IMG/VR virus record: IMGVR_UViG_3300003154_000004
Coordinates: 1-64,000 of that record
DNA length: 64,000 nt
Direction: 5' to 3' (one strand)
DNA from: a virus
The number at the start of each line of letters is the position of its first letter. Position 1 is the first letter of the stretch. Positions 39,733-64,000 of this stretch are shown here, piece after piece. Below the pieces are notes generated by a model. It made no database searches and was not told the origin of the DNA. It saw only the letters and a program-made list of their open reading frames with translations. The position numbers and the translations under genes were made by a program.

Positions 39733-40072
39733 TCTCGTTCTCTATGTTGCCACAACATCTCAACAGGCTGTAGGGATTTTGAAAGAGAACTATATTGCGG
39801 TTGCAATCATCGATCTCGCGTTGCCTTCCGATTCTCGAATGGATGGACTAGAGTTCTGCCAGTTTTGTCGAAGTAGAAACCCAATGATTCATTACATAGC
39901 AACCACTGGGTACTGCTCCCTCTTTGACATTACGATGTGTAGGACGATTGGGTTCGATGATGTTATTCTGAAACCCTTTCAGCTTGATGACCTCTGGAAT
40001 TCAGTTGAATACGGATTCAAAAAACGTGGGCGTTGGAAATCTTGTGCTGCTGTTCGCAATCCTCCACGTTGA
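39656..40072 (+). CDS. Stand-alone CheY-like response-regulator receiver domain
   Basis: SD AAGAGGA. All receiver hallmarks are present: LLEDD acidic pocket, phospho-acceptor context VAIIDLALP, IATTG (Thr) and ILKPF (Lys-Pro). There is no output domain. Confidence 0.8.
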   Translation: MRVILLEDDVQIVRMIQEFLPKKDPNLVLYVATTSQQAVGILKENYIAVAIIDLALPSDSRMDGLEFCQFCRSRNPMIHYIATTGYCSLFDITMCRTIGFDDVILKPFQLDDLWNSVEYGFKKRGRWKSCAAVRNPPR

Positions 40073-41947
40073 CTATTTGTGTAGAACCTTCGTTTCTTCC
40101 ATCTCCTGTGTGAAAAAACAGTAGTGTAGAATGCAGGAGATAGCAATAAATCGATTTGTACGATAGTCAGGTTCAGGGTAAATCCCAGGGAAGTTTGCAA
40201 TCGCATACCCCTTGTAGGGTATGTAATTTACACCTACTGACCATTTGAATGCTTTCATGTGCCGGGCTTTTGGATATTTTGGGACCTCCCGCTTACTCGC
40301 CGTTACCATCTTGTAGTCAAACATCATGATCTGTGCATCTGATTTCTTGAACTCCTCAAAGTCTTCCTCAAAGTTTTCATCATACTTTTCATCTTGATCA
40401 AGGAACAGAACGTAGGTGGGTTTAATCGTATCAAGTTCCCGTATAAGCTCCTCTCTCCAATTCCATCTATTCCATTCACTCGTTGCATTGATTATCGTGT
40501 GTGGGTAAGACGTCGGGATTTGTAGAAGGCAACGTGAAAAAAGTTCCGCATCTCCTTTAATATTATCAAACCTCAGTACGACCTGATCACAATACCGAAG
40601 AAGATCTGAGAGAGCAGTAGCGGCGAGGGGGAAGTCTGAGATTGCCATCAGACCAACCGTGATTTCCTTTCTCTTGAAAGCTGAAATAGTAATCGTCTCA
40701 GCCTTTTTCTCCCAATTGTTCTTTACCTGCTTCGTGGCATCTTCAAGAAGAGGTTTCATCTGTTTATACCATATGTTCTCATATGAGAAATCCCAGAGAT
40801 GATACCGCATCGGTAGATAATTGAGAATCTTCATGGCGAGATCATCGAAGTAGGCATTAGGATCATGGTAGGTAACTAGCTGAAGATCTCCTGCAGCACC
40901 ATCTGTTATACCAGGGGTTCTAAATGAAGCATCGAAATACAGTGCCCTTACCCCAGCAAATTCCCTCAAGCATTTCAATCGATTGCTCACGACCAGCAGA
41001 TTATCACTAATCTTCGCTTCGATCAGGCAGTTGGGGGAAACTTCAGAGCGGGAAGCAAAAACGAAGAGATTTGCGAGGCGGAAAAGTTCCGCGACATTGC
41101 GTCTAGGCAGAGGTTTGTTGTGAGTCAATTCATTCGTGAAGATGAAATCCTCTCCATCTATGAGACCCATCGATTTGCAATACTCCTTCTTCTCTTCGAT
41201 CTCCTTCAAGCGATGCCTCGCGTTTGCATTTGCAAAGATTAGCGCCACTTTTTGCCCTTTCCGCTTCAGAGCAGCAAAGGTCATGATGAGAGGATCGATC
41301 CCTTTTGCCTCCATACGAGTCGCGCAGTGGGGGAAGATCTGTATGACACCTTTATTCGGAATATCGAGCAGATCAATTATTTGGCACGTGAGAGGGTCAA
41401 GATTGTGAAACGATCGGTAGTCTTTTGGGTTATAGACGCATTTGACGTTTTCGGGGGAGGTGTTGTACATCTGAGCAAGTCCCTGTGCGTCCCTTTTGTT
41501 CATGTATACGAGCCATGAATGTTCCATCATCGTGTGTCGCAAGTTCTGAGGGTATGGTGTGTTCGGCAGAGAATGGGTCCATGCTGAATGTACCCAATGC
41601 AGCCAGAACGCTTTCAGAGATGGTTCAGCGAGACGCATTGCAGCATTGTATGCAAGAAAGGTACGTTGGTAGATCAGGTCGGCAGTCAGAATGATGTCGT
41701 AGTCCTTTAAAATGGAAAGGTAGAGTGTAGCGTAATGATTGGCTTGTTCTTCAAACGGGGCCCCCCGTGGGATTGTGGTGAGGTTATTGATCTGGTTCGG
41801 GTAGAGATCCTTCGGGCAGTTCACATTGACTAGGAAGTCGAAGTCCTGTTTGAATCGTTCCAACATCTTCGCCCTCTCTAACCAACCTATATGCAGTGCA
41901 TACCCATCTTGAAAGCTACCAAAATGACTCAGTATTGCGATCTTCAT
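40073..41947 (-). CDS. Two-domain glycosyltransferase (N-terminal GT-B/GT4-like, C-terminal GT-A-like with DQDE)
   Basis: 624 aa. GT-B-type FVFASRSEVSPNCLIEAKISDNLLV. C-terminal YVLFLDQDEKYDE (DxD-like). Confidence 0.6.
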   Translation of the reverse strand: MKIAILSHFGSFQDGYALHIGWLERAKMLERFKQDFDFLVNVNCPKDLYPNQINNLTTIPRGAPFEEQANHYATLYLSILKDYDIILTADLIYQRTFLAYNAAMRLAEPSLKAFWLHWVHSAWTHSLPNTPYPQNLRHTMMEHSWLVYMNKRDAQGLAQMYNTSPENVKCVYNPKDYRSFHNLDPLTCQIIDLLDIPNKGVIQIFPHCATRMEAKGIDPLIMTFAALKRKGQKVALIFANANARHRLKEIEEKKEYCKSMGLIDGEDFIFTNELTHNKPLPRRNVAELFRLANLFVFASRSEVSPNCLIEAKISDNLLVVSNRLKCLREFAGVRALYFDASFRTPGITDGAAGDLQLVTYHDPNAYFDDLAMKILNYLPMRYHLWDFSYENIWYKQMKPLLEDATKQVKNNWEKKAETITISAFKRKEITVGLMAISDFPLAATALSDLLRYCDQVVLRFDNIKGDAELFSRCLLQIPTSYPHTIINATSEWNRWNWREELIRELDTIKPTYVLFLDQDEKYDENFEEDFEEFKKSDAQIMMFDYKMVTASKREVPKYPKARHMKAFKWSVGVNYIPYKGYAIANFPGIYPEPDYRTNRFIAISCILHYCFFTQEMEETKVLHK

Positions 41948-42594
41948 TACTTTACTGGACCTCCTTTTTGTATGTACTGCTGAATGGCTTCTTGCAATGG
42001 GTAGTAGACAATAGTTCCATCTTCAATAAGATTGAGCATTTCGGAATTTGACGATGGCTTATTAATGTATTCATCTCGTAATAGTAGTTGGTCATTATAC
42101 CATGCAACAAGCCATCCTGGTTTATCTTTTATGAGCACGTAATCTAATTGTTCCATCCAGTTGTGAATCTCAAAGATAATCTTCCATACATTACCCATCC
42201 AAGCATGACCATTGTTGAGTTTTTCGGGTAGCGTTCTTTCTTCGATCTCATGGTAAGGTGGGTAGAAAGGGTTGACATCATGGATTAATATAACGGAATC
42301 TTTCTGTGTACGTAACAATACGTTTGACAAGTCCCGAGTGACCTGATTTGCTGAATGAAAACCATCTATGAAAACCATCTCAAAAAATCGATCGACGTTG
42401 TAAGGCCAAGAGGCTGCAAATATACCATCCGACGTCCCTCTCAAAAGCCTTCCTGATTGGACACTACCATTCGGAGAGATGCAAACTTTATCTTCAAGAG
42501 GGACGCTCTCAAAGTTTCGCCCGTCCCCAAGTCCTATTTCAAGATAGGACGTAGGTTTTCTCAACTTGAAGAAAGCTTCTAGGACGTCTCGCAT
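41947..42594 (-). CDS. Class I methyltransferase-like protein
   Basis: Motifs YLEIGLGDGRNF, MVFIDGFHS and ILIHDVNP, giving a Methyltransf_24-like pattern. Confidence 0.45.
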   Translation of the reverse strand: MRDVLEAFFKLRKPTSYLEIGLGDGRNFESVPLEDKVCISPNGSVQSGRLLRGTSDGIFAASWPYNVDRFFEMVFIDGFHSANQVTRDLSNVLLRTQKDSVILIHDVNPFYPPYHEIEERTLPEKLNNGHAWMGNVWKIIFEIHNWMEQLDYVLIKDKPGWLVAWYNDQLLLRDEYINKPSSNSEMLNLIEDGTIVYYPLQEAIQQYIQKGGPVK

Positions 42595-57609: not shown

Positions 57610-60240
57610 TCAAATTACTCCTTTCACTTTTGCTTTATTTCCCCAACCTTCATCAATTTCAGTTGCTTCAAAATCCATCTTTATTGGGATGTTAATAAAA
57701 GGGAATGCTTGCATCAGCTTTCGCGTCCCGATCTCATTTGTCACCCGAATGATTGTCTCGAACTCATCAGGTGGGGTGTCGAGAAGAATGGAATCATGAA
57801 TTTGACCTATGATCTTTGTCCACATCCGATTCTGCCGAATGTATTGATTCAACTCAATTAACGTCCATAACAAAAAGTGAAACGCTGTGCCTTGAATCGG
57901 GTAGTTACTGACTTCCTTCTCTGTCATGTACCCAACATATTGAAACCCCAGCAGAGATTCAATATGCCCCTGCTTCCTATACAATCTGTTTATGTCAATT
58001 TTCCACTGGGCATACTCCTTGAATCTCTCCTTCCAGAAGATGCGTTCAACATCCTTCAGATGTTCTTTAAACTCGTCAATGGATTTAATTCTGTGCTTCT
58101 CCCTCAACCAGTCCTTAAGCATCACTCCGTCTTTTGTCTTCAAATGCGCACAGTTCTTCCACAAATCATTCCCGCAGTTACCATAATAACTGCCATAGAA
58201 TTGAGGGAACACCCAACAATTCTTCGCATAGAATCGAATTTTCTCTTCGGGATCAAGAAGTTCTGCTGGCAACATCCAAATGTCTACTGCACTGTCTCTG
58301 TGCATGTCCGTTGTCTTATCCACAAGATACTTTATCAGCGATCGATCCTGTGTATACACTCCTGCCGTTCGTACTTCAATCGATGAATAGTCTCCTTCTA
58401 TAATGCGATTCCCAGGACTCGGCTTCAATCCCATCCTCGTGATCTTTTTCGAGAAAGCATCACGAACAGGAACATTCTGAAGATTGGGATTTGACGAACT
58501 GCCCCTGTACGTTCTTGGAATATGAAGATCGAAGAAAGGGTGAATGCGTCCGTTTCTTACCTCCCGCAAGAACTGAGCAAGATACGTTCCCTTTACTTTC
58601 TCCAGTTTACGAGTCTCCAGAACGAGACGGATCAGGGGACTTTCGATGGAATCATTTAGTGTGGAAGCATCGATGGACAAATTGTCATTGTCCGTTAATA
58701 CCTCCTCCGCACCCACTATCTCATACAATAACAGACGCATATCTTCAGTGGAGTTTGTGTCGGGAAGACGTTGAAAACGTTCACGAAACTTCGCGACTTC
58801 CCCCGTCTGCAACATCTCCTGCTTTTTCTGTTTGATTAATCCCGTTAGTTCCTCTTTCTTTTCAATGTAGTAATTCTCATCCGCCACGACCCCATTAATT
58901 TGTACATCACTCAACGCTTTCATTCCATCCATAAAGAAACGAAATGCTTTGTATCGCCCTTCAAAAGACTTTTTTGCAAACTCCTTCGACTGTTCCATAA
59001 ACAGCTTCATCCCATACAAACTATCCAGCCCACAATATGTTAGCAGATCATGAATGTCGATTTCATCGACACGGTTGAAGGAATTACTATCAGATGCATG
59101 TAAAAAAGGGGCAATGTGTTTATCGTATGGTCGTACCCCAAAATTGATGTACGTCTGAAACTTCAAACCCGTCCAATTCTTTCTATTATCCCGAATGTGC
59201 GCTGCAATCATCGTATCCCAATACCAATTCTCTACAGAACCTCCAATGACATATCTCGACCATATGTCTTCGAACTTGATATTATGAGCCATTTTTAGCG
59301 ATCGTGTTTTTAGTACCTTTTGCACCAGAGTTTTGATCGCAGTGACTTCCTTCTCCGAAAACCACCCTGCATATTCGATTGGGAAACTTACAGCACAATC
59401 AGATTTTGCTGCAAAAGAGGCACAGGCTATACGATGGCCGGGACTGAAAGGCTTCAGCCCTGTTGTTTCATAATCGAAGTAGAGGTAGTGAGGGGGCATA
59501 TCAAGAATATTCTGTAGGAATGCTCGAATGTCATCAAAGGTGTACAAACGAAGGATTGATGAAGCGTGATTCTCATCGATCGTTTCCGTATTGTCAAACG
59601 GTCTCTCCCACCCTAAGCATTCGATTGCAAGATCGAGATCCCTTCCATACACACTCTGCAAGTTCTCATTGCGAGAATCGCGAGTGGGGTAGGATGGGTG
59701 AAACATTGGGAAAACCCATGCATTGTACTTACGATCTGGGATCGCAGTACCCCTCCATCTGGAAATCTCTCTGTACTTAAAGTCATCCATGTAAAAACTA
59801 TCGATTGCTTTCCCTCCCATTAGCCAAATAATCTTTGGTTTCAATTCAGAGAGGGCTTTTTCAATAAGAGGACGACAATACTGTACTTCAAGTAGAGTTG
59901 GTGCGCGAGTTTTCCCATCACTATTGGGCCAACAGTTTACTGCATTCATCCTCCAAAACATCTGATCCAGATCACACCCTCGCTCCTTCAACTTGTCACG
60001 AAAGAATTGACCTACTTTTCCGATCAGTTGAGTTCTCATCTGATCTTCTGTCGGGCCGTTTGCTTCAGCGACAATCAGCGCTTGCAACTCGCCTTTTCCT
60101 GAGGGTGGAAGTTTAGGATTAGCACAGTGATGATGCAGCTTACAGAGTCCACATGCAGGACCCCCTTGCGTGTTTTCTTGGAAATAGGATTTTGTAACCT
60201 TATCGACTTCTGCCTGTGTGAAGAAACCTTTCAATGTCAT
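57610..60240 (-). CDS. Family A DNA polymerase with an N-terminal UDG-family-4-like domain and a 3'-5' exonuclease domain
   Basis: UDG-like: CGLCKLHHHC, VAEANGPTED (degenerate GEAPG), FHPSY. Exonuclease: YFDYETTGL, HNIKFED, YCGLDS. Polymerase: DYSSIEVR (motif A), FYAKNCWVFPQFYGSYYG (motif B), QIHDSILLD (motif C). Confidence 0.9.
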   Translation of the reverse strand: MTLKGFFTQAEVDKVTKSYFQENTQGGPACGLCKLHHHCANPKLPPSGKGELQALIVAEANGPTEDQMRTQLIGKVGQFFRDKLKERGCDLDQMFWRMNAVNCWPNSDGKTRAPTLLEVQYCRPLIEKALSELKPKIIWLMGGKAIDSFYMDDFKYREISRWRGTAIPDRKYNAWVFPMFHPSYPTRDSRNENLQSVYGRDLDLAIECLGWERPFDNTETIDENHASSILRLYTFDDIRAFLQNILDMPPHYLYFDYETTGLKPFSPGHRIACASFAAKSDCAVSFPIEYAGWFSEKEVTAIKTLVQKVLKTRSLKMAHNIKFEDIWSRYVIGGSVENWYWDTMIAAHIRDNRKNWTGLKFQTYINFGVRPYDKHIAPFLHASDSNSFNRVDEIDIHDLLTYCGLDSLYGMKLFMEQSKEFAKKSFEGRYKAFRFFMDGMKALSDVQINGVVADENYYIEKKEELTGLIKQKKQEMLQTGEVAKFRERFQRLPDTNSTEDMRLLLYEIVGAEEVLTDNDNLSIDASTLNDSIESPLIRLVLETRKLEKVKGTYLAQFLREVRNGRIHPFFDLHIPRTYRGSSSNPNLQNVPVRDAFSKKITRMGLKPSPGNRIIEGDYSSIEVRTAGVYTQDRSLIKYLVDKTTDMHRDSAVDIWMLPAELLDPEEKIRFYAKNCWVFPQFYGSYYGNCGNDLWKNCAHLKTKDGVMLKDWLREKHRIKSIDEFKEHLKDVERIFWKERFKEYAQWKIDINRLYRKQGHIESLLGFQYVGYMTEKEVSNYPIQGTAFHFLLWTLIELNQYIRQNRMWTKIIGQIHDSILLDTPPDEFETIIRVTNEIGTRKLMQAFPFINIPIKMDFEATEIDEGWGNKAKVKGVI

Positions 60241-60252
60241 GTAGACTCCTCT

Positions 60253-61347
60253 TCAATAGGGAATGTCATCTTCTGTTGTGTCATTCATTTTGGATGAGAA
60301 CAGGCAGATGCATTGTTGGAACCCATTCCTTTCCATTATCAGCACCCCTCGTGTAGGAGCTACGGAAATGCGTGTCGCCCCTTTCGCAAGAGCGTTACGA
60401 ATGAAGTCAGGGCTGACATTGATTGAGAAGCCTGAATCGGAAGGTGTAGGATGACTGATAACTTCCACTGCTCTCCCCACGGGACTCTTGTACTCGAATC
60501 GAATATTCCCTTCCCGAAAATTCATCTGAATGAACTCGTCACCTTCCTTCAGTACCGTCACTGTATCAACTGCATTAATTACTTCCTCAGATTTCAATTC
60601 GATCGGTTCCGTTACTACATCAGCCATAATTCTCTGTAGCAATTCGTCGCATGCTAGAAATGACCCTTTCATTTTCCTCACACTAAAGATCGTCCCGATT
60701 TTGTTCTTGAAGAAGACCCAAGACGATGACCATGAGAAAAGTACAGGTTTAAAGCTGGCAAGATCCTTCGCAATCACAGCCTTCATGAGCACTTCATCCC
60801 CTTCCTCTGTCATGAATGAATCCATTTCGAATCGAGCCAATCTAACCCGATCTGTCGCCGTAAGCAAATTATCACGAACTTGAATGCACGTGAGAGGCCC
60901 CGCAACTTCATCCGTCGATGCACTGAAGCTACATAGTACGATACCTTCTAAGAATGAATCAGGCACTTCATACCATTGTTCATTTTGAATGGGAATCTCA
61001 TTACGAAGATTGTGAAGAGCTTCAGAGAGGAGATCTTCGACTTGCGTTGACATCTGCAATCTCCCACTCCCTGCTCTAAACACAATCCCACCATCATCTA
61101 GCTTTGTAACCCCTAACTCGCCTGTCTTTCTCGAAACCCATTTGTACAATTCATCTGCTTTGACGGAACATTGCAGGTTTGTAGTGAATGGGTGCATGAT
61201 GCAGACCATATCATTGAATGTCGTGATCATATCCTGATCAAAAATGAAGTGAACCATCTGCTCGACAATTTCTTTCTTAGCCAAGCCAGGACGCACTAAC
61301 TCAAGTGCCTCTTTAAAATCCTCACACTTAATCTTTATTTCCTCCAC
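60253..61347 (-). CDS. DNA polymerase sliding clamp (DnaN/beta-like)
   Basis: 364 aa, the size of DnaN. The N-terminal pattern (FKEALELVRPGLAKKEIVEQMVHFIF...ITTFNDMVCI) is DnaN-like. Lies directly next to the polymerase gene. Confidence 0.6.
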   Translation of the reverse strand: MEEIKIKCEDFKEALELVRPGLAKKEIVEQMVHFIFDQDMITTFNDMVCIMHPFTTNLQCSVKADELYKWVSRKTGELGVTKLDDGGIVFRAGSGRLQMSTQVEDLLSEALHNLRNEIPIQNEQWYEVPDSFLEGIVLCSFSASTDEVAGPLTCIQVRDNLLTATDRVRLARFEMDSFMTEEGDEVLMKAVIAKDLASFKPVLFSWSSSWVFFKNKIGTIFSVRKMKGSFLACDELLQRIMADVVTEPIELKSEEVINAVDTVTVLKEGDEFIQMNFREGNIRFEYKSPVGRAVEVISHPTPSDSGFSINVSPDFIRNALAKGATRISVAPTRGVLIMERNGFQQCICLFSSKMNDTTEDDIPY

Positions 61348-61513
61348 GCCTCTCTCCTTTTAATCGTAATACTGATTCGTTATCCTTCTCGTCAAAGAAA
61401 AAACTGATCAATCGTCTATAGGCTGGGTGATGCTTCAGCACACGTTCGGCTGCAGCGGCTTCAAGTTTAAAATTCTTCAGTTGCGGGAAGTTCCCTGCGA
61501 GATAAAGTTTCAT
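61328..61513 (-). CDS. Doubtful small ORF
   Basis: 61 aa from ATG 61513. It overlaps the upstream gene by 47 nt. If not coding, it leaves a 119-nt gap before the clamp gene. Confidence 0.2.
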   Translation of the reverse strand: MKLYLAGNFPQLKNFKLEAAAAERVLKHHPAYRRLISFFFDEKDNESVLRLKGERRGGNKD

Positions 61514-61895
61514 TAACAATCCTCTCTCTTTGCGCTCTCTCATATAATACTCGCATTATGGCAGAGTAGACAGCGAGATCAAGTAAGGTCTGAGTAAGGG
61601 GTTCATCTTGGACTGCGGCTTTTTTCTGTGTGAGTTCGTTCTTCACGAGCCCTTTCACCCTCGACACTTTATCCATGAGCCGATTCATTACAGAAAGCCA
61701 CCCAGGCATTCCATACTCTTCCGACTCTGTAAAATTTGACAAGGGAACACCTCCCCCTGTATAATCATGATCCTTCGCTGCATGCGTTTTGATTGCTTCG
61801 ATGAGAACAGCGAATACCTCGTTGTCTCCCCAATCAGCTGGGATCTCTAATAGGGTGCACATTTTTTGTACATCTGCATCCATTAATGTTGGCAT
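61467..61895 (-). CDS. DUF1599-like (nucleotide-modification-associated, MazG-fold-like) protein
   Basis: ATG 61895 follows GGGAGGAAA. The pattern KDHDYTGGG...LSNF...WLSVMNRLMDKVSRVKGL...LLDLAVYSAIM matches the DUF1599 pattern as I recall it. Confidence 0.45.
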   Translation of the reverse strand: MPTLMDADVQKMCTLLEIPADWGDNEVFAVLIEAIKTHAAKDHDYTGGGVPLSNFTESEEYGMPGWLSVMNRLMDKVSRVKGLVKNELTQKKAAVQDEPLTQTLLDLAVYSAIMRVLYERAQRERIVNETLSRRELPATEEF

Positions 61896-61976
61896 CTCTT
61901 TATTTCCTCCCTCATACCCATATTCGATTGCTACCAATACTCGCTCCGTCGAAGCTGCTCCGCATTTAACTCTTGT

Positions 61977-62624
61977 TTAGGATTCACCATCAATCGTACC
62001 TTCTCTTTCCAGCACTCCTTGTTTTTCTTCATCCGACATGCTACACCAGCTATTCATAACTTCTACTATATCCCGCCTCTGATATGAATACCCGCGCTCT
62101 TTGTACTTCTGTAGTCGGAGAATGGTATCTACAGGATCTCGAATGTTTCGAAGGATCGTACAATTCTCTTCATAGGAATCGAAGGCTGCTTTCGTCGCAT
62201 ATAACACAAGACGATTTAAGAAAAAACAGATCTGGCAAAGGGCGAGATCAAAAGAATGAAGAACGGTTTCAGGTTTCCCTGCGTTAGCATATCGACGGGT
62301 AATGACAGGTTTGATCAGTTGAATAGGTGGAACGGAAAAGAACGAATCAAATGGATTAGAATATCGTGTAAACGTTACTGCTCTGCTCGTCTCCATCTCA
62401 ACCGTTAGTGTATCCGCAAGTAATTTGTACACTCGACCATAATCTAACTCCTTCGTCAAAAACAGATCGATGTCTTTTTGTGACTCATGCCATCCCGCCA
62501 TATATCCTGCATATCCCCCTGCAATGAAAACCTTTTCTTCACATCCCCCTTCAATTAAAAGTTGATTGAGTGGTCGAAGTTCGTTATATCCTCGTCGAAT
62601 TGGAACTTGTCGGAGCTTTTCCAT
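61977..62624 (-). CDS. Hypothetical protein, possible nucleotidyltransferase-fold
   Basis: ATG 62624 follows GGAGGG. VFIAGGYAGYMAGWHESQKDIDLFL resembles a GG...DxD nucleotidyltransferase head. Weak. Confidence 0.3.
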   Translation of the reverse strand: MEKLRQVPIRRGYNELRPLNQLLIEGGCEEKVFIAGGYAGYMAGWHESQKDIDLFLTKELDYGRVYKLLADTLTVEMETSRAVTFTRYSNPFDSFFSVPPIQLIKPVITRRYANAGKPETVLHSFDLALCQICFFLNRLVLYATKAAFDSYEENCTILRNIRDPVDTILRLQKYKERGYSYQRRDIVEVMNSWCSMSDEEKQGVLEREGTIDGES

Positions 62625-62628
62625 CTTC

Positions 62629-63519
62629 TTACCCTCCAAATAGTGTACCTTGCATTTCTCTCAGAGGCCAAGGCCACTCGGGGACACTCTTTTCGAGATC
62701 CAAGAAATAGATCATGTTCAACTGATCGCGCAGTGTGTGGTCGTTGCAAATCCCGCGCTTTATGACGTTCTCTTGCAGTTTCTCGCGCTTGTTTTTGATT
62801 ACTTTTTCGAATGTGCTTTCTCCTAATACAAACCCTTTCATTCTCAGATACTCAATCAAGTAGGCGAAGATGACCTCATCCCCCATACTATCGATGTGCT
62901 GAAAGAGTTCGGATTTCTTCGGACTGCGTCCTGTAACTGCAACCGTCAGTGGGGTTTTGCTGTAATCGTAAACACCATTCGTCTTGCGGGGGACTAGCAC
63001 AATTCCATATCTTCCAAACATAACCCAACTAGTACTGTCTACACTATACCAAGGCCAGCGATGAACGAGTTCTGGACTTGTCATTGCAAATCCGTGTGTC
63101 TTCCACTGTGGTAAGTGATCTTTTCCTGGGCATAGCATACGGAACACTTCATCGCCATGTGCAATGAACTCATGGCGATTGACATCTTGCCCTAGCCCTC
63201 CTATCCCTATATATTCGTATTCATGCATATACCTTTTCAACCATTTGAAATCCTCTCCGTAGTGAAACACAGGGAGTGGGCACAGTTTGTGTGTATCCTC
63301 CAGATACTTCTGTACGCGCCATGTTGCCTCGGGATCGAAGATCACATCGACCGTCACGTAGACATCAAGTCGATGGAGATTCTGTTTTACATACTCCGCA
63401 TAGCGATCCACATAATCCCAAAACTCTTGTGTCTCGATGTACTCGTACCCTCTCCCTTCCCCTTTAATAATCTGCTCATAGATGCTGTGCGCCCCACTAT
63501 CTAGCATTATGTCAATCAT
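62629..63519 (-). CDS. dpdA: TGT-like TIM-barrel protein, candidate DpdA-type DNA transglycosylase
   Basis: N-terminal MLDSGAHS (compare the TGT DSGGFQ catalytic-Asp strand). Also PLPVFHYGED, YIGIGGLG, THGFAMTS and PWYSVDSTSW, patterns I associate with phage DpdA/TGT-like proteins. No CxCxxC zinc site was seen. Confidence 0.4.
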   Translation of the reverse strand: MIDIMLDSGAHSIYEQIIKGEGRGYEYIETQEFWDYVDRYAEYVKQNLHRLDVYVTVDVIFDPEATWRVQKYLEDTHKLCPLPVFHYGEDFKWLKRYMHEYEYIGIGGLGQDVNRHEFIAHGDEVFRMLCPGKDHLPQWKTHGFAMTSPELVHRWPWYSVDSTSWVMFGRYGIVLVPRKTNGVYDYSKTPLTVAVTGRSPKKSELFQHIDSMGDEVIFAYLIEYLRMKGFVLGESTFEKVIKNKREKLQENVIKRGICNDHTLRDQLNMIYFLDLEKSVPEWPWPLREMQGTLFGG

Positions 63520-64000
63520 TTTTGATTTCTCCAGTTCCCATACTTCAAATTGTAATAGATGTCCGCGTGAGGTTCGTCAGTAGCCATCACTTCCAAATAC
63601 CTTGTGAAGCTATCATCAAACCTTTTGTACACCCACGAGAAGTCTTCCTCTTCTTCTACATCGAGTGCGCTTAGAATTACGTTCCTCGCACTCTGTACAG
63701 TGCCTTTTGCATACAAGCAGTCAAGGCGTTCATTGAGGGTTTCAGGGAAACTGAGATAGTAGGGGTAGACTGGATGACAACCACACGTAGTCGCTTCCAG
63801 TAGTGTCCAACTTACAAAGTCTTGATCCGCACAATTAAATTGTACTTTCGACTCAAGGAGATTTCGATAGTAATCTTGCTTGCTCTGATTCTGACGGAGT
63901 TCAAGATTGTGCGGAAAACGATGAAGATACTCTTCGAGTAGTATCAGAAGGGAAGGTCTGTTAGAACGGAGCACCTTTGCAGATGTTGTAATGACGAACT
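63516..64000 (-). CDS. GT-B glycosyltransferase, C-terminal part (gene continues beyond the window edge)
   Basis: The frame stays open to position 64000. DFVSWTLLEATTCGCHPVYP resembles the E...lEA..G.P motif of GT1/GT4 enzymes. Confidence 0.4.
   Translation of the reverse strand, partial: FVITTSAKVLRSNRPSLLILLEEYLHRFPHNLELRQNQSKQDYYRNLLESKVQFNCADQDFVSWTLLEATTCGCHPVYPYYLSFPETLNERLDCLYAKGTVQSARNVILSALDVEEEEDFSWVYKRFDDSFTRYLEVMATDEPHADIYYNLKYGNWRNQK

What the first reader, a model, noticed from the sequence alone, without database searches (positions are those of the whole stretch)
61467..64000. Candidate DNA hypermodification cassette adjacent to the replisome genes: DpdA/TGT-like + GT-B + nucleotidyltransferase-like + DUF1599-like
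Immediately upstream of the clamp and polymerase genes, in transcription order, lie four tightly coupled genes (ATGA and 4-nt junctions):
- A partial GT-B glycosyltransferase.
- A 296-aa TIM-barrel-like protein with an N-terminal DSGA motif and a PWYSVDSTSW motif. I associate these with phage DpdA-type guanine transglycosylases, which insert 7-deazaguanines into DNA.
- A possible nucleotidyltransferase-fold protein.
- A DUF1599-like protein, which I recall was renamed nucleotide modification associated domain 1.

A transglycosylase combined with a glycosyltransferase hints at a base exchange followed by further decoration, possibly a glycosylated deazapurine or another composite base. Such a combination is not a described standard pathway. 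The preQ0 biosynthesis genes (folE, queD, queE, queC) are not in this window and could lie beyond 64000 or be supplied by the host.
Basis: inference. Interest (0 to 1): 0.7.

Follow-up and report, generated by a model that had tools for sequence, protein, structure and literature searches.

The report
Deazaguanine DNA-modification operon with a glycosyltransferase
This phage region is the end of an operon that swaps guanine in DNA for a 7-deazaguanine base, and it carries a sugar-adding enzyme, conserved in many unrelated phages, which suggests an undescribed sugar-decorated deazaguanine.

Summary
Four co-directional, tightly packed minus-strand genes lie just upstream of the clamp and UDG-PolA genes.

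The 296-aa protein is a phage DpdA homologue. The partial ORF at the window edge is the C-terminus of a 406-aa GT4-type GT-B glycosyltransferase.

The predicted precursor genes lie beyond 64000 on the same contig: queD, queE and folE. There is no queC. Instead there is a QueD paralogue with the DpdL signature LxxxHRHxF, so the base is 7-deazaguanine-type (as in phage phiST), not preQ0.

The main new result is that the glycosyltransferase is a conserved pathway member:
- It sits beside DpdA and/or DpdL in all twelve lineages examined that carry it.
- These include cultured phages ACP17, PA5oct, BUDD, BCSR5, Phosso and cyanophage BUCT-ZZ01.
- Phages with DpdL but no such enzyme nearby also exist; one of them, phiST, contains plain dDG.

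The nucleotidyltransferase-like and DUF1599-like genes are lineage-specific passengers.

The most likely product is a glycosylated 7-deazaguanine in DNA. This is inferred from gene linkage only. I found no report of such a base. It can be tested by LC-MS on cultured phages.

The parts
63516..64000 (-). C-terminal 160 codons of a 406-aa GT4-type (GT-B) glycosyltransferase. The ORF runs off the window. The full-length protein is P0122.
   Evidence: - Open frame to the window edge; identical to the C-terminus of P0122.
- AlphaFold model: pLDDT 92.7.
- Foldseek against PDB: BshA, MshA, LmbT and BGluT, E down to 2.9e-13.
- Invariant R221/K226 and a D/E-x7-E motif across 13 lineages.
- Many homologues carry PF00534.
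62629..63519 (-). DpdA-family DNA guanine transglycosylase (296 aa). It is translationally coupled to the glycosyltransferase by an ATGA overlap.
   Evidence: - phrog_887, 3e-42.
- tblastn to phage 9g and related DpdA genes, 28-32% identity, E 1e-17 to 1e-24.
- BFVD fold matches to phage 'queuine tRNA-ribosyltransferase' models; top hit E 9e-22, TM 0.76.
- Invariant D7, D58, H86, G108 and D161 in the family alignment.
61977..62624 (-). 215-aa Pol-beta-type nucleotidyltransferase-like protein (Gad2-like). It is lineage-specific and probably not part of the pathway.
   Evidence: - GG-x13-DID motif, read directly in the sequence.
- phrog_4400 at 2.5e-10; phrog_1614 'nucleotidyltransferase' at 0.007.
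- Precomputed PF26128 Gad2, weak.
- No Pfam hit in the local copy.
- No homologue in loci L005-L012.
61467..61937 (-). 156-aa divergent DUF1599 / 'nucleotide modification associated domain 1' protein (142 aa if read from the ATG at 61895). It is lineage-specific.
   Evidence: - No direct Pfam hit; phrog_1485 at 1e-9.
- 1,474 homologues found; 27 of 40 sampled hit PF07659.
- Absent from loci L005-L012.
61328..61513 (-). 61-aa conserved small protein just upstream of the clamp gene. It is fused to the C-terminus of DpdA in one relative.
   Evidence: - Homologues in all six lineages of this phage group.
- Fused to DpdA as residues 316-370 of the 376-aa DpdA P0114 in L009.
- No family match.

Best explanation
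The region is the downstream half of a 7-deazaguanine DNA-modification operon that lacks QueC and uses DpdL. On the source contig the gene order is: helicase, QueD, a 68-aa gene, a C92-like gene, QueE, a K/E-rich gene, FolE, DpdL, a 145-aa gene, a 164-aa gene, GT4, DpdA, NTase-like, DUF1599-like, p61, clamp, UDG-PolA.

Proposed pathway:
1. FolE, QueD and QueE convert GTP to 7-carboxy-7-deazaguanine (CDG). This follows from established knowledge of these families.
2. The QueD paralogue DpdL is proposed to decarboxylate CDG to 7-deazaguanine. This is the proposal of Cui et al. 2023; the enzyme activity has not been shown.
3. DpdA exchanges guanine in replicated phage DNA for the deazaguanine base, by the TGT-type double-displacement mechanism. 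This is inferred from homology to validated DpdA.
4. The GT4 glycosyltransferase is a dedicated member of the pathway. It most likely transfers a sugar from a host NDP-sugar onto the deazaguanine. This could happen on the free base before insertion, or on the inserted base in DNA.

The expected product is a glycosylated 7-deazaguanine that protects phage DNA from nucleases.

The NTase-like (Gad2-like) and DUF1599-like genes are lineage-specific insertions. They are possibly anti-defence or nucleotide-metabolism accessories.

Confidence by layer:
- DpdA / deazaguanine DNA modification: about 0.85.
- 7-deazaguanine-type base rather than preQ0: about 0.75.
- The glycosyltransferase is functionally part of the pathway: about 0.65.
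- The sugar ends up on the DNA base: about 0.45.
For: DpdA identity.

Precursor genes on the same contig:
- The 97%-identical relative L001 carries QueD (6e-32), QueE (Radical_SAM 1e-13; phrog_2076 4e-28) and FolE (2.5e-63).
- On the 91,004-bp source contig, gene numbers _33 (helicase), _34 (QueD), _36 (C92-like), _43 (GT) and _44 (DpdA) fit that gene order exactly. A FolE identical to L001's is recorded on a 91,004-bp NCBI contig.

DpdL:
- All nine DpdL-like proteins aligned carry LxxxHRHxF. The co-encoded QueDs carry CxxxHG(H/Y).
- This matches the signature published in PMC10516641.

No QueC was found in the window's minus-strand genes or in any fetched locus.

Glycosyltransferase linkage:
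- Only four families are present in all nine loci clustered: QueE, FolE, DpdL and the GT.
- The GT gene overlaps or abuts DpdA or DpdL in several lineages. Examples: the window, ATGA overlap; ACP17, DpdA-GT overlap with DpdL directly after; Phosso, DpdL-GT overlap; BUCT-ZZ01, DpdL then GT with no gap; BUDD, 1-nt gap.
- Among 50,697 phage records, 23 hold the GT and 24 hold DpdL. Eighteen records hold both.
- ACP17 gp124 lies between dpdA and dpdL and is a GT homologue (hhalign 99.5%, E 1e-22).
- The linkage spans two DpdA subfamilies that BLAST cannot connect.

The catalytic motifs of the GT are invariant.

Phages with DpdL but no GT nearby exist: phiST, Ahp1 and RHph_I1_18. phiST DNA contains plain dDG. 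This fits the GT as an add-on decoration step.

PA5oct carries the GT, DpdL and QueE. Its DNA resists G-containing restriction enzymes, and the identity of its modified G is undetermined.

Co-expression of ACP17 dpdL and dpdA without the GT gave no dDG in E. coli.

Biochemical precedent: the GT4-type HuiG glycosylates a 7-deazapurine base using UDP-GlcNAc.
Against: - There is no chemical evidence for a sugar on deazaguanine in any phage.
- Plain 7-deazaguanine has no hydroxyl group. The attachment would have to be N-linked (N2, as I recall for huimycin), C-linked (C7 or C8), or to the carboxyl of CDG. Each would be unprecedented in DNA.
- The window protein's own Pfam glycosyltransferase score is below threshold (16.2 bits against a 26.4-bit cut-off).
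- The DpdA model has no significant match to solved TGT or DpdA structures. A family profile finds none in PDB by sequence either.
- DpdL activity has never been demonstrated.
- The rest of the source contig (about 27 kb beyond the window) could be inferred only from a relative and from gene numbering. A distant queC is therefore not strictly excluded.
- The plus-strand genes of the window were not scanned against Pfam.
Confidence: 0.5

Rival explanations
1. The operon makes plain 2'-deoxy-7-deazaguanosine (dDG), as in Cellulophaga phage phiST. The glycosyltransferase acts on something other than the DNA base. Candidates are a host envelope polymer (receptor masking or superinfection exclusion), a phage or host protein, or another DNA base.
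For: - phiST has FolE, QueD, QueE, DpdL and DpdA, and contains only dDG.
- The closest structural neighbours of the GT are enzymes that act on small molecules or teichoic acid. None of the top 50 is the T4 DNA alpha- or beta-glucosyltransferase.
- The GTs are uniformly acidic, pI 5.2-7.0.
- The window holds a second, unrelated glycosyltransferase at 40073-41947. Phage glycosyltransferases with other roles are therefore clearly present.
Against: - An envelope-modifying enzyme has no reason to stay next to, and translationally coupled with, DpdA or DpdL in all twelve GT-bearing lineages examined. These span siphovirus-sized, T4-like and jumbo phages and two DpdA subfamilies.
- No hydroxymethyl-pyrimidine pathway genes were seen in the minus-strand gene block that could supply another DNA acceptor.
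Confidence: 0.25
2. The glycosyltransferase is needed to make the base, but the sugar is not retained in DNA. For example, it could transiently glycosylate or activate CDG or a pterin intermediate so that DpdL or DpdA can act. Alternatively, the FolE / T-fold / GT4 set could make a pteridine glycoside, as in cyanobacteria.
For: - dpdL plus dpdA from ACP17 gave no dDG in E. coli. The authors suggested that further enzymes may be required. The gene between them is this GT.
- Tetrahydrobiopterin glucosyltransferase (BGluT), a GT4 enzyme acting on a pterin, is among the structural matches, E 1.4e-10.
Against: - phiST makes dDG with no detectable GT homologue in the 30-kb stretch around its cluster.
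- BGluT ranks below BshA, MshA and LmbT, so the match reflects general GT4 similarity.
- A pteridine glycoside does not explain the obligate presence of QueE and DpdA.
Confidence: 0.12
3. A preQ0-based pathway in which all four genes (GT, DpdA, nucleotidyltransferase, DUF1599) cooperate to build a composite base, for example by nucleotidyl activation followed by glycosylation.
For: - The four genes are tightly packed and co-directional.
- DUF1599 is named 'nucleotide modification associated domain 1' in Pfam.
- The NTase motif is present in the 215-aa protein.
Against: - No queC was found, and DpdL is present.
- The NTase-like and DUF1599-like genes have no homologues in the five related lineages or in the three cultured-phage clusters compared by BLAST.
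- The word-indexed homologue search found only one cluster for the NTase-like protein, its own.
- The NTase-like protein resembles Gad2, an anti-Gabija protein.
Confidence: 0.05

Closest known systems
Cellulophaga phage phiST dDG system (FolE, QueD, QueE, DpdL, DpdA3; Cui et al. 2023, PMC10516641)
   Same: - No QueC. A QueD paralogue carries LxxxHRHxF.
- The cluster lies between the CDG genes and the polymerase genes.
- A transglycosylase is present.
- The overall gene order is similar.
   Different: - phiST has no homologue of the glycosyltransferase in the 30-kb stretch around its cluster.
- Its DpdA3 and polymerase are not detectably similar to the window's proteins by BLAST.
- It has a MazG-like gene. 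That gene is unrelated to the window's DUF1599-like gene.
Enterobacteria phage 9g / Queuovirinae DpdA1 systems (dG+, dPreQ0; Hutinet et al. 2019)
   Same: They are the closest cultured-phage homologues of the window DpdA: 28-32% identity, E 1e-17 to 1e-24. Same PHROG family.
   Different: By my knowledge of those systems, they encode QueC (or Gat-QueC) and insert preQ0-derived bases. They have neither DpdL nor the glycosyltransferase.
Acidovorax phage ACP17 and Pseudomonas phage PA5oct deazaguanine clusters
   Same: The same GT family is adjacent to DpdL, with QueE in both clusters and FolE and QueD in ACP17. PA5oct DNA shows G-dependent restriction resistance.
   Different: - ACP17 has a different DpdA subfamily (about 424 aa, related to the Vibrio phage nt-1 type).
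- The PA5oct DpdA was not identified here.
- Their GTs are only 22-24% identical to the window's GT.
HuiG, the glycosyltransferase of huimycin biosynthesis (Kutzneria albida)
   Same: It is a GT-B glycosyltransferase (PF13439) that glycosylates a free 7-deazapurine base with UDP-GlcNAc. This is the nearest biochemical precedent for pairing a GT with a deazaguanine.
   Different: - It belongs to secondary metabolism. Its acceptor is an O-methylated preQ0 derivative, and no DpdA is involved.
T4 alpha- and beta-glucosyltransferases (glucosyl-5hmC)
   Same: They are phage GT-B enzymes that decorate a modified DNA base after replication, as an anti-restriction measure (my knowledge).
   Different: - They act on a hydroxymethyl pyrimidine.
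- They are not among the top 50 structural matches of the window GT.

Membership tests
Phage DpdA (DNA guanine transglycosylase, TGT superfamily) | Significant sequence homology to experimentally validated phage DpdA | tested here: met
   - phrog_887 'queuine tRNA-ribosyltransferase', 3e-42.
- tblastn to phage 9g: 29% identity over 89% of the query, E 3e-22. 187 phage records hit in all.
Phage DpdA (DNA guanine transglycosylase, TGT superfamily) | TGT-like TIM-barrel fold | tested here: inconclusive
   - The model is confident, pLDDT 91.7.
- No significant PDB match. The best hit has E 0.13; the top matches include several generic TIM barrels.
- A family profile finds no TGT or DpdA in PDB by sequence.
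- BFVD gives 23 hits at E below 1e-3. All are phage TGT-like or uncharacterised proteins.
Phage DpdA (DNA guanine transglycosylase, TGT superfamily) | Three invariant active-site aspartates plus a His and a Gly-rich loop (bDpdA D95, D130, H181, G206/G207, D256; PMC10164549) | tested here: inconclusive
   D7, D58, H86, G108 and D161 are invariant in 33 family members, in the same order. The residue mapping rests on order and motif only. No structural superposition was done.
Phage DpdA (DNA guanine transglycosylase, TGT superfamily) | Co-encoded 7-deazaguanine precursor genes | tested here: met
   FolE, QueD and QueE lie upstream in the near-identical relative and, by cluster look-up and gene numbering, on the source contig.
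Phage DpdA (DNA guanine transglycosylase, TGT superfamily) | Guanine-for-deazaguanine exchange in DNA | not testable with these tools
   Needs LC-MS of DNA or an in vitro exchange assay.
DpdL (proposed CDG decarboxylase; encoded beyond 64000 on the same contig) | QueD/PTPS T-fold paralogue with LxxxHRHxF replacing CxxxHGH | tested here: met
   - PTPS 5e-4; phrog_17812 4e-17.
- The motif is LRTPHRHLF in L001 and is present in all nine homologues aligned.
- The signature is as published.
- The BCSR5 homologue is 60% identical to the ACP17 gene at the position of gp125, which I take to be the ACP17 dpdL of Cui et al..
DpdL (proposed CDG decarboxylase; encoded beyond 64000 on the same contig) | Occurs with FolE, QueD, QueE and DpdA, and without QueC | tested here: met
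   True for the six lineages of the window's phage group. In several cultured-phage clusters QueD or DpdA was not located in the stretch examined. Whole genomes were not scanned.
GT4-type GT-B glycosyltransferases | Two-Rossmann-domain GT-B fold | tested here: met
   Model pLDDT 92.7. 412 PDB matches at E below 1e-3. The top matches are BshA, MshA, LmbT, TarM, glycogen synthase and BGluT.
GT4-type GT-B glycosyltransferases | Pfam Glycos_transf_1 match above the gathering threshold | tested here: inconclusive
   The near-identical L001 protein (89% identical to P0122) scores 16.2 bits against a 26.4-bit cut-off, E 0.0078. Many 45-56%-identical homologues carry a precomputed PF00534 hit.
GT4-type GT-B glycosyltransferases | E-x7-E motif and phosphate-binding basic residues in the C-terminal domain | tested here: met
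   D/E-x7-E (D306...E314) and R221/K226 are conserved in 13 lineages at 22-48% identity. The role assigned to these residues comes from my knowledge of GT4 enzymes.
GT4-type GT-B glycosyltransferases | NDP-sugar-dependent glycosyl transfer; identity of the acceptor | not testable with these tools
   Needs enzyme assays.
DUF1599 / nucleotide modification associated domain 1 (PF07659) | Match to the Pfam model | tested here: inconclusive
   The window protein itself has no hit at E below 0.1. 27 of 40 of its homologues do, best E 1.4e-6.
Pol-beta-type nucleotidyltransferase / Gad2-like | G[GS]-x9-13-D-x-D motif and a family model match | tested here: inconclusive
   - Motif GGYAGYMAGWHESQKDID is present (sequence).
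- phrog_1614 at 0.007.
- Precomputed PF26128 hit, weak.
- No hit in the local Pfam copy, even at E up to 10.

The most novel reading that the evidence does not exclude
The conserved GT4 enzyme attaches a sugar to 7-deazaguanine, either on the free base that DpdA then inserts or on dDG already in DNA.

- To my knowledge this would be the first glycosylated purine-type base in any DNA.
- It would add a branch to the deazaguanine pathway shared by ACP17-, PA5oct-, BUDD-, BCSR5-, Phosso- and BUCT-ZZ01-like phages and a large uncultured phage group.
- It would explain the unidentified modified G of PA5oct.
- It would explain why DpdL plus DpdA alone could not be reconstituted in E. coli.
Probability: 0.4. 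Interest if true: 0.85.

Novelty: new variant of a known kind. Interest (0 to 1): 0.7.

Why it matters
Eight 7-deazaguanine derivatives are known in phage DNA, and none carries a sugar. Glycosylation of DNA bases is so far reported only for hydroxylated pyrimidines.

A glycosylated deazaguanine would be a new chemical class of DNA base. It would bear on restriction, CRISPR and END-nuclease evasion, on sequencing artefacts at G, and on enzymatic DNA labelling.

The analysis also points to a specific unannotated gene that earlier reconstitution attempts left out: ACP17 gp124 (PA5oct gp167 is its homologue). It names cultured phages in which the prediction can be tested directly.

Tried and rejected
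- **Source contig retrieval.** An exact 50-mer from the window end found nothing in the viral contigs. Exact look-ups of the DpdA protein found nothing. The extension came from P0121, a 97%-identical cluster member.
- **Near-DNA search against phages.** No match. The phage has no close cultured relative.
- **PDB by sequence.** The DpdA single sequence and the family profile gave only noise.
- **PDB by fold for DpdA.** Not significant.
- **Is the window DpdA a DpdA3?** No BLAST similarity to phiST CGPG_00065. p61 and p164 also do not match phiST genes 64 and 66.
- **Is the DUF1599-like gene the counterpart of the phiST MazG-like gene?** hhalign probability 0.1%. Rejected.
- **NCBIfam.** No useful hits for the four genes.
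- **BCSR5 446-aa protein and PA5oct gp168** (both next to the GT). I could not show that either is a DpdA.
- **Literature.** Searches for DpdL, DUF1599, glycosylated deazaguanine, and the named phages found no prior description of the GT link.
- **Pteridine-glycoside reading.** Considered, then ranked low.
- **Nucleotide-level (pre-replicative) route.** Considered because BUCT-ZZ01 and phiST encode phosphoribosyltransferases. There is no such gene in the window's cluster.


Full report
**1. Observation**

The minus strand of window 57.6-64 kb carries a run of co-directional genes:
- a UDG-PolA fusion (57610-60240);
- a clamp-like gene (60253-61347);
- a small ORF (61328-61543);
- a 156-aa ORF (61467-61937);
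- a 215-aa ORF (61977-62624);
- a 296-aa ORF (62629-63519);
- an ORF open to the window edge (63516-64000).

The last two overlap as ATGA. Four nucleotides separate the 296-aa gene from the next one. The edge ORF has no stop codon up to base 63998. It is identical to the C-terminus of P0122, a 406-aa protein recorded on the same 91,004-bp NCBI WGS contig (AMWB02) that carries the identical 296-aa protein P0001. Their gene numbers are _43 and _44.

**2. The 296-aa protein is a DpdA**

It matches phrog_887 ('queuine tRNA-ribosyltransferase') at 3e-42. By tblastn it matches 187 phage records. These include phage 9g and its relatives, at 29% identity over 89% of the query and E 3e-22.

Pfam and NCBIfam do not recognise it. 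Neither the single sequence nor a 33-member profile finds a TGT or DpdA in PDB.

An AlphaFold model with pLDDT 91.7 has no significant PDB neighbour. The best hit has E 0.13, and the top matches include several generic TIM barrels. Against predicted viral structures it gives 23 hits at E below 1e-3. All are phage 'queuine tRNA-ribosyltransferase' or uncharacterised proteins; the top hit has E 9e-22 and TM 0.76.

The family alignment has invariant D7 (in DSGA), D58, H86, G108 and D161 (in SVDSTSW). This is the same order as the active-site set D95, D130, H181, G206/G207 and D256 of bacterial DpdA (PMC10164549). That mapping is my inference from order and motif, not from a superposition.

More than 2,900 metagenomic proteins belong to this family at E below 1e-5.

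**3. The precursor genes exist, but the pathway is not the preQ0 pathway**

P0121 is a 97%-identical cluster member. It gave locus L001, which extends 10 kb upstream. In transcription order L001 carries:
1. a DnaB-like helicase;
2. QueD (PTPS, 6e-32);
3. a 68-aa gene;
4. a C92 peptidase-like gene;
5. QueE (Radical_SAM 1e-13; phrog_2076 4e-28);
6. a K/E-rich protein;
7. FolE (2.5e-63);
8. a 121-aa QueD paralogue;
9. genes of 145 and 164 aa;
10. the 406-aa GT;
11. DpdA.

Exact-sequence look-ups show that the source contig itself carries helicase (_33), QueD (_34) and the C92-like protein (_36). An identical FolE is recorded on a 91,004-bp NCBI contig. The numbering 33 to 44 fits the L001 order gene for gene.

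The 121-aa paralogue carries LRTPHRHLF. This is the DpdL signature LxxxHRHxF that Cui et al. 2023 contrast with CxxxHGH of QueD. All nine DpdL-like proteins aligned have it, while the co-encoded QueDs have CxxxHG(H/Y).

No QueC appears in L001, in five further related loci, or among the window's 25 minus-strand proteins.

The expected base is therefore 7-deazaguanine-type. phiST has FolE, QueD, QueE, DpdL and DpdA3, and LC-MS shows that dG in its DNA is fully replaced by dDG.

**4. The glycosyltransferase**

The L001 counterpart of the 406-aa protein (89% identical to P0122) scores below the Pfam threshold for Glycos_transf_1 (E 0.0078). Many homologues at 45-56% identity carry PF00534.

Its model (pLDDT 92.7) is a GT-B fold. 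The best PDB neighbours are GT4 enzymes: BshA (2.9e-13), MshA, LmbT, TarM, glycogen synthase and tetrahydrobiopterin glucosyltransferase. The T4 DNA glucosyltransferases are not in the top 50.

Thirteen family members from thirteen lineages were aligned, at 22-48% identity apart from the near-identical L001 copy. They keep an N-terminal (L/I)E(P/K)xxxRY(T/S) motif, R221/E225/K226/P228, and a D/E-x7-E motif ending at E314. The enzyme therefore looks catalytically intact.

**5. The glycosyltransferase is a conserved member of the DpdL-type pathway**

This is the main result.
- In five further phage lineages whose DpdA is 44-53% identical (L005-L009), the GT lies next to or near DpdA.
- Clustering all ORFs of nine loci gives only four families present in all nine: QueE, FolE, DpdL and the GT.
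- In cultured phages, the GT family is found in 23 records and the DpdL family in 24, out of 50,697. Eighteen records have both.

The shared cultured-phage lineages and their gene orders are:
- ACP17: DpdA gp123, GT gp124, DpdL gp125, QueE. gp124 is annotated hypothetical but is a GT homologue (hhalign 99.5%, E 1e-22; BLASTP 7e-30 to the BUDD GT).
- The PA5oct group: GT gp167, DpdL gp166, QueE gp162.
- Sinorhizobium phage Phosso: DpdL, GT, FolE, QueE.
- Xanthomonas phages BUDD and X1: FolE..., GT, DpdA, DpdL, QueE.
- Burkholderia phage BCSR5.
- The T4-like cyanophage BUCT-ZZ01: QueE, a phosphoribosyltransferase, QueD, FolE, a divergent second GT, DpdA, DpdL, GT.

The DpdAs of BUDD, ACP17 and BUCT-ZZ01 belong to another subfamily, related to that of Vibrio phage nt-1. 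BLAST does not connect it to the window's DpdA. The linkage therefore follows DpdL and the pathway, not one DpdA lineage.

Start-stop overlaps, or gaps of 0-1 nt, between the GT and DpdA or DpdL occur in the window, L001, L007, L008, L009, BUDD, ACP17, Phosso and BUCT-ZZ01.

Three DpdL-bearing phages have no GT in the stretch examined around DpdL (±7 kb; 30 kb for phiST): phiST, Aeromonas phage Ahp1 and Rhizobium phage RHph_I1_18.

**6. Interpretation of the glycosyltransferase**

The pattern is an optional enzyme added to an otherwise complete dDG pathway and kept operonic with it across very distant phages. This is what one expects of a further decoration step.

Three outside observations fit:
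[quoted passage not shown] The authors infer a modified G whose identity was not determined (PMC12191111).
- Cui et al. could not obtain dDG in E. coli from ACP17 dpdL plus dpdA, and suggested that further enzymes may be needed. The gene lying between those two is this GT.
- In huimycin biosynthesis, the glycosyltransferase HuiG (PF13439) glycosylates a 7-deazapurine base with UDP-GlcNAc (preprint 10.64898/2026.04.15.718813).

Where the sugar would attach, and whether the free base or DNA is the acceptor, remains open. The small-molecule-acceptor neighbours in PDB and the uniformly acidic pI of 5.2-7.0 lean weakly towards the free base. In that case DpdA would insert a bulky 7-substituted base, much as eukaryotic TGT inserts queuine (my knowledge).

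I found no report of a glycosylated deazaguanine in DNA.

**7. The other two genes**

The 156-aa protein has no direct Pfam hit. It does have 1,474 homologues, and 27 of 40 sampled match PF07659, DUF1599 or 'nucleotide modification associated domain 1'. It is unrelated to the phiST MazG-like protein.

The 215-aa protein has a GG-x13-DID motif. It has weak hits to a nucleotidyltransferase PHROG (0.007) and to PF26128 Gad2 (precomputed). Gad2 is an anti-Gabija protein predicted to be a nucleotidyltransferase.

Neither gene has a homologue in any of the related or cultured-phage clusters compared. I regard them as lineage-specific insertions between dpdA and the replisome genes, not as pathway members.

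By contrast, the 61-aa gene just upstream of the clamp is conserved in all six lineages. In one lineage it is fused to the C-terminus of DpdA.

**8. Verdict**

The finding is real. Its core identification is correct and its central hint is reinforced.
- DpdA-mediated deazaguanine modification of DNA is a known system.
- The DpdL branch is a proposed, partly characterised one.
- A conserved GT4 partner, with the implied glycosylated deazaguanine, is a new variant that rests on genomic inference only.

Interest is high because cultured phages are available to test it.

Noticed in passing
window 61328-61513 (-); L009 10001-11131: A 61-aa protein encoded just upstream of the clamp gene is conserved in all six lineages of this phage group. 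In L009 it forms the C-terminal extension of DpdA (residues 316-370 of the 376-aa P0114). This suggests it works with DpdA. It matches no known family.
   Followed up: partly
window 40073-41947 (-) and 41947-42594 (-): A second, unrelated 624-aa glycosyltransferase (Glyco_trans_1_4 1e-4; phrog_2170 1e-7) lies at the far end of the minus-strand gene block. The gene next to it gives a weak DNA methyltransferase-like hit (phrog_27561, 4e-4). A Methyltransf_24 hit also occurs somewhere in the block.
   Followed up: partly
L015 6804-7832 (Acidovorax phage ACP17 gp124, NC_041997.1 84803-85831): This gene lies between dpdA and dpdL of ACP17 and is annotated 'hypothetical protein'. It is a clear member of the GT family (hhalign 99.5%). 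The only paper found that discusses DpdL does not mention a glycosyltransferase.
   Followed up: yes
L010 4087-4548 and 6004-7347 (Synechococcus phage BUCT-ZZ01): The cyanophage cluster also holds a phosphoribosyltransferase (phrog_8995, 4e-16) and a second, divergent GT-like protein of 447 aa (GT HMM 1.3e-8). phiST also encodes a phosphoribosyltransferase (CGPG_00045). This hints at a nucleotide-level branch in some phages.
   Followed up: partly
L007 6224-7156; L008 10947-11825; L005 11110-11781: Extra radical SAM proteins lie beside the GT and DpdA in three related lineages. Two of them carry a SPASM domain. They suggest further chemical diversification of the base.
   Followed up: no
L007 11150-14722; L008 14463-18146 and 2470-4032; L006 19356 to the locus end: Inteins or HINT domains interrupt PolA, QueE and RecA in relatives of this phage: PolA of about 1,190-1,227 aa (an intein hit is recorded only for the L008 PolA), QueE of 520 aa, RecA of 833 aa.
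   Followed up: no
L001 4811-5392 and 8309-8803: A C92 permuted-papain-like protein sits between queD and queE. An uncharacterised 164-aa protein between dpdL and the GT is conserved in four of six lineages. The roles of both are unknown.
   Followed up: no
window about 40000-42000: GC skew changes sign (about +0.17 to about -0.2) at about 40-42 kb. This coincides with the switch from plus-strand genes to minus-strand replication and modification genes.
   Followed up: no
L012 9114-10454; L013 6986-8608: In BCSR5 and PA5oct, the large proteins next to the GT (446 and 540 aa) occupy the position where DpdA would be expected. They match no PHROG family and no DpdA by BLAST. They could be very divergent transglycosylases.
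   Followed up: partly
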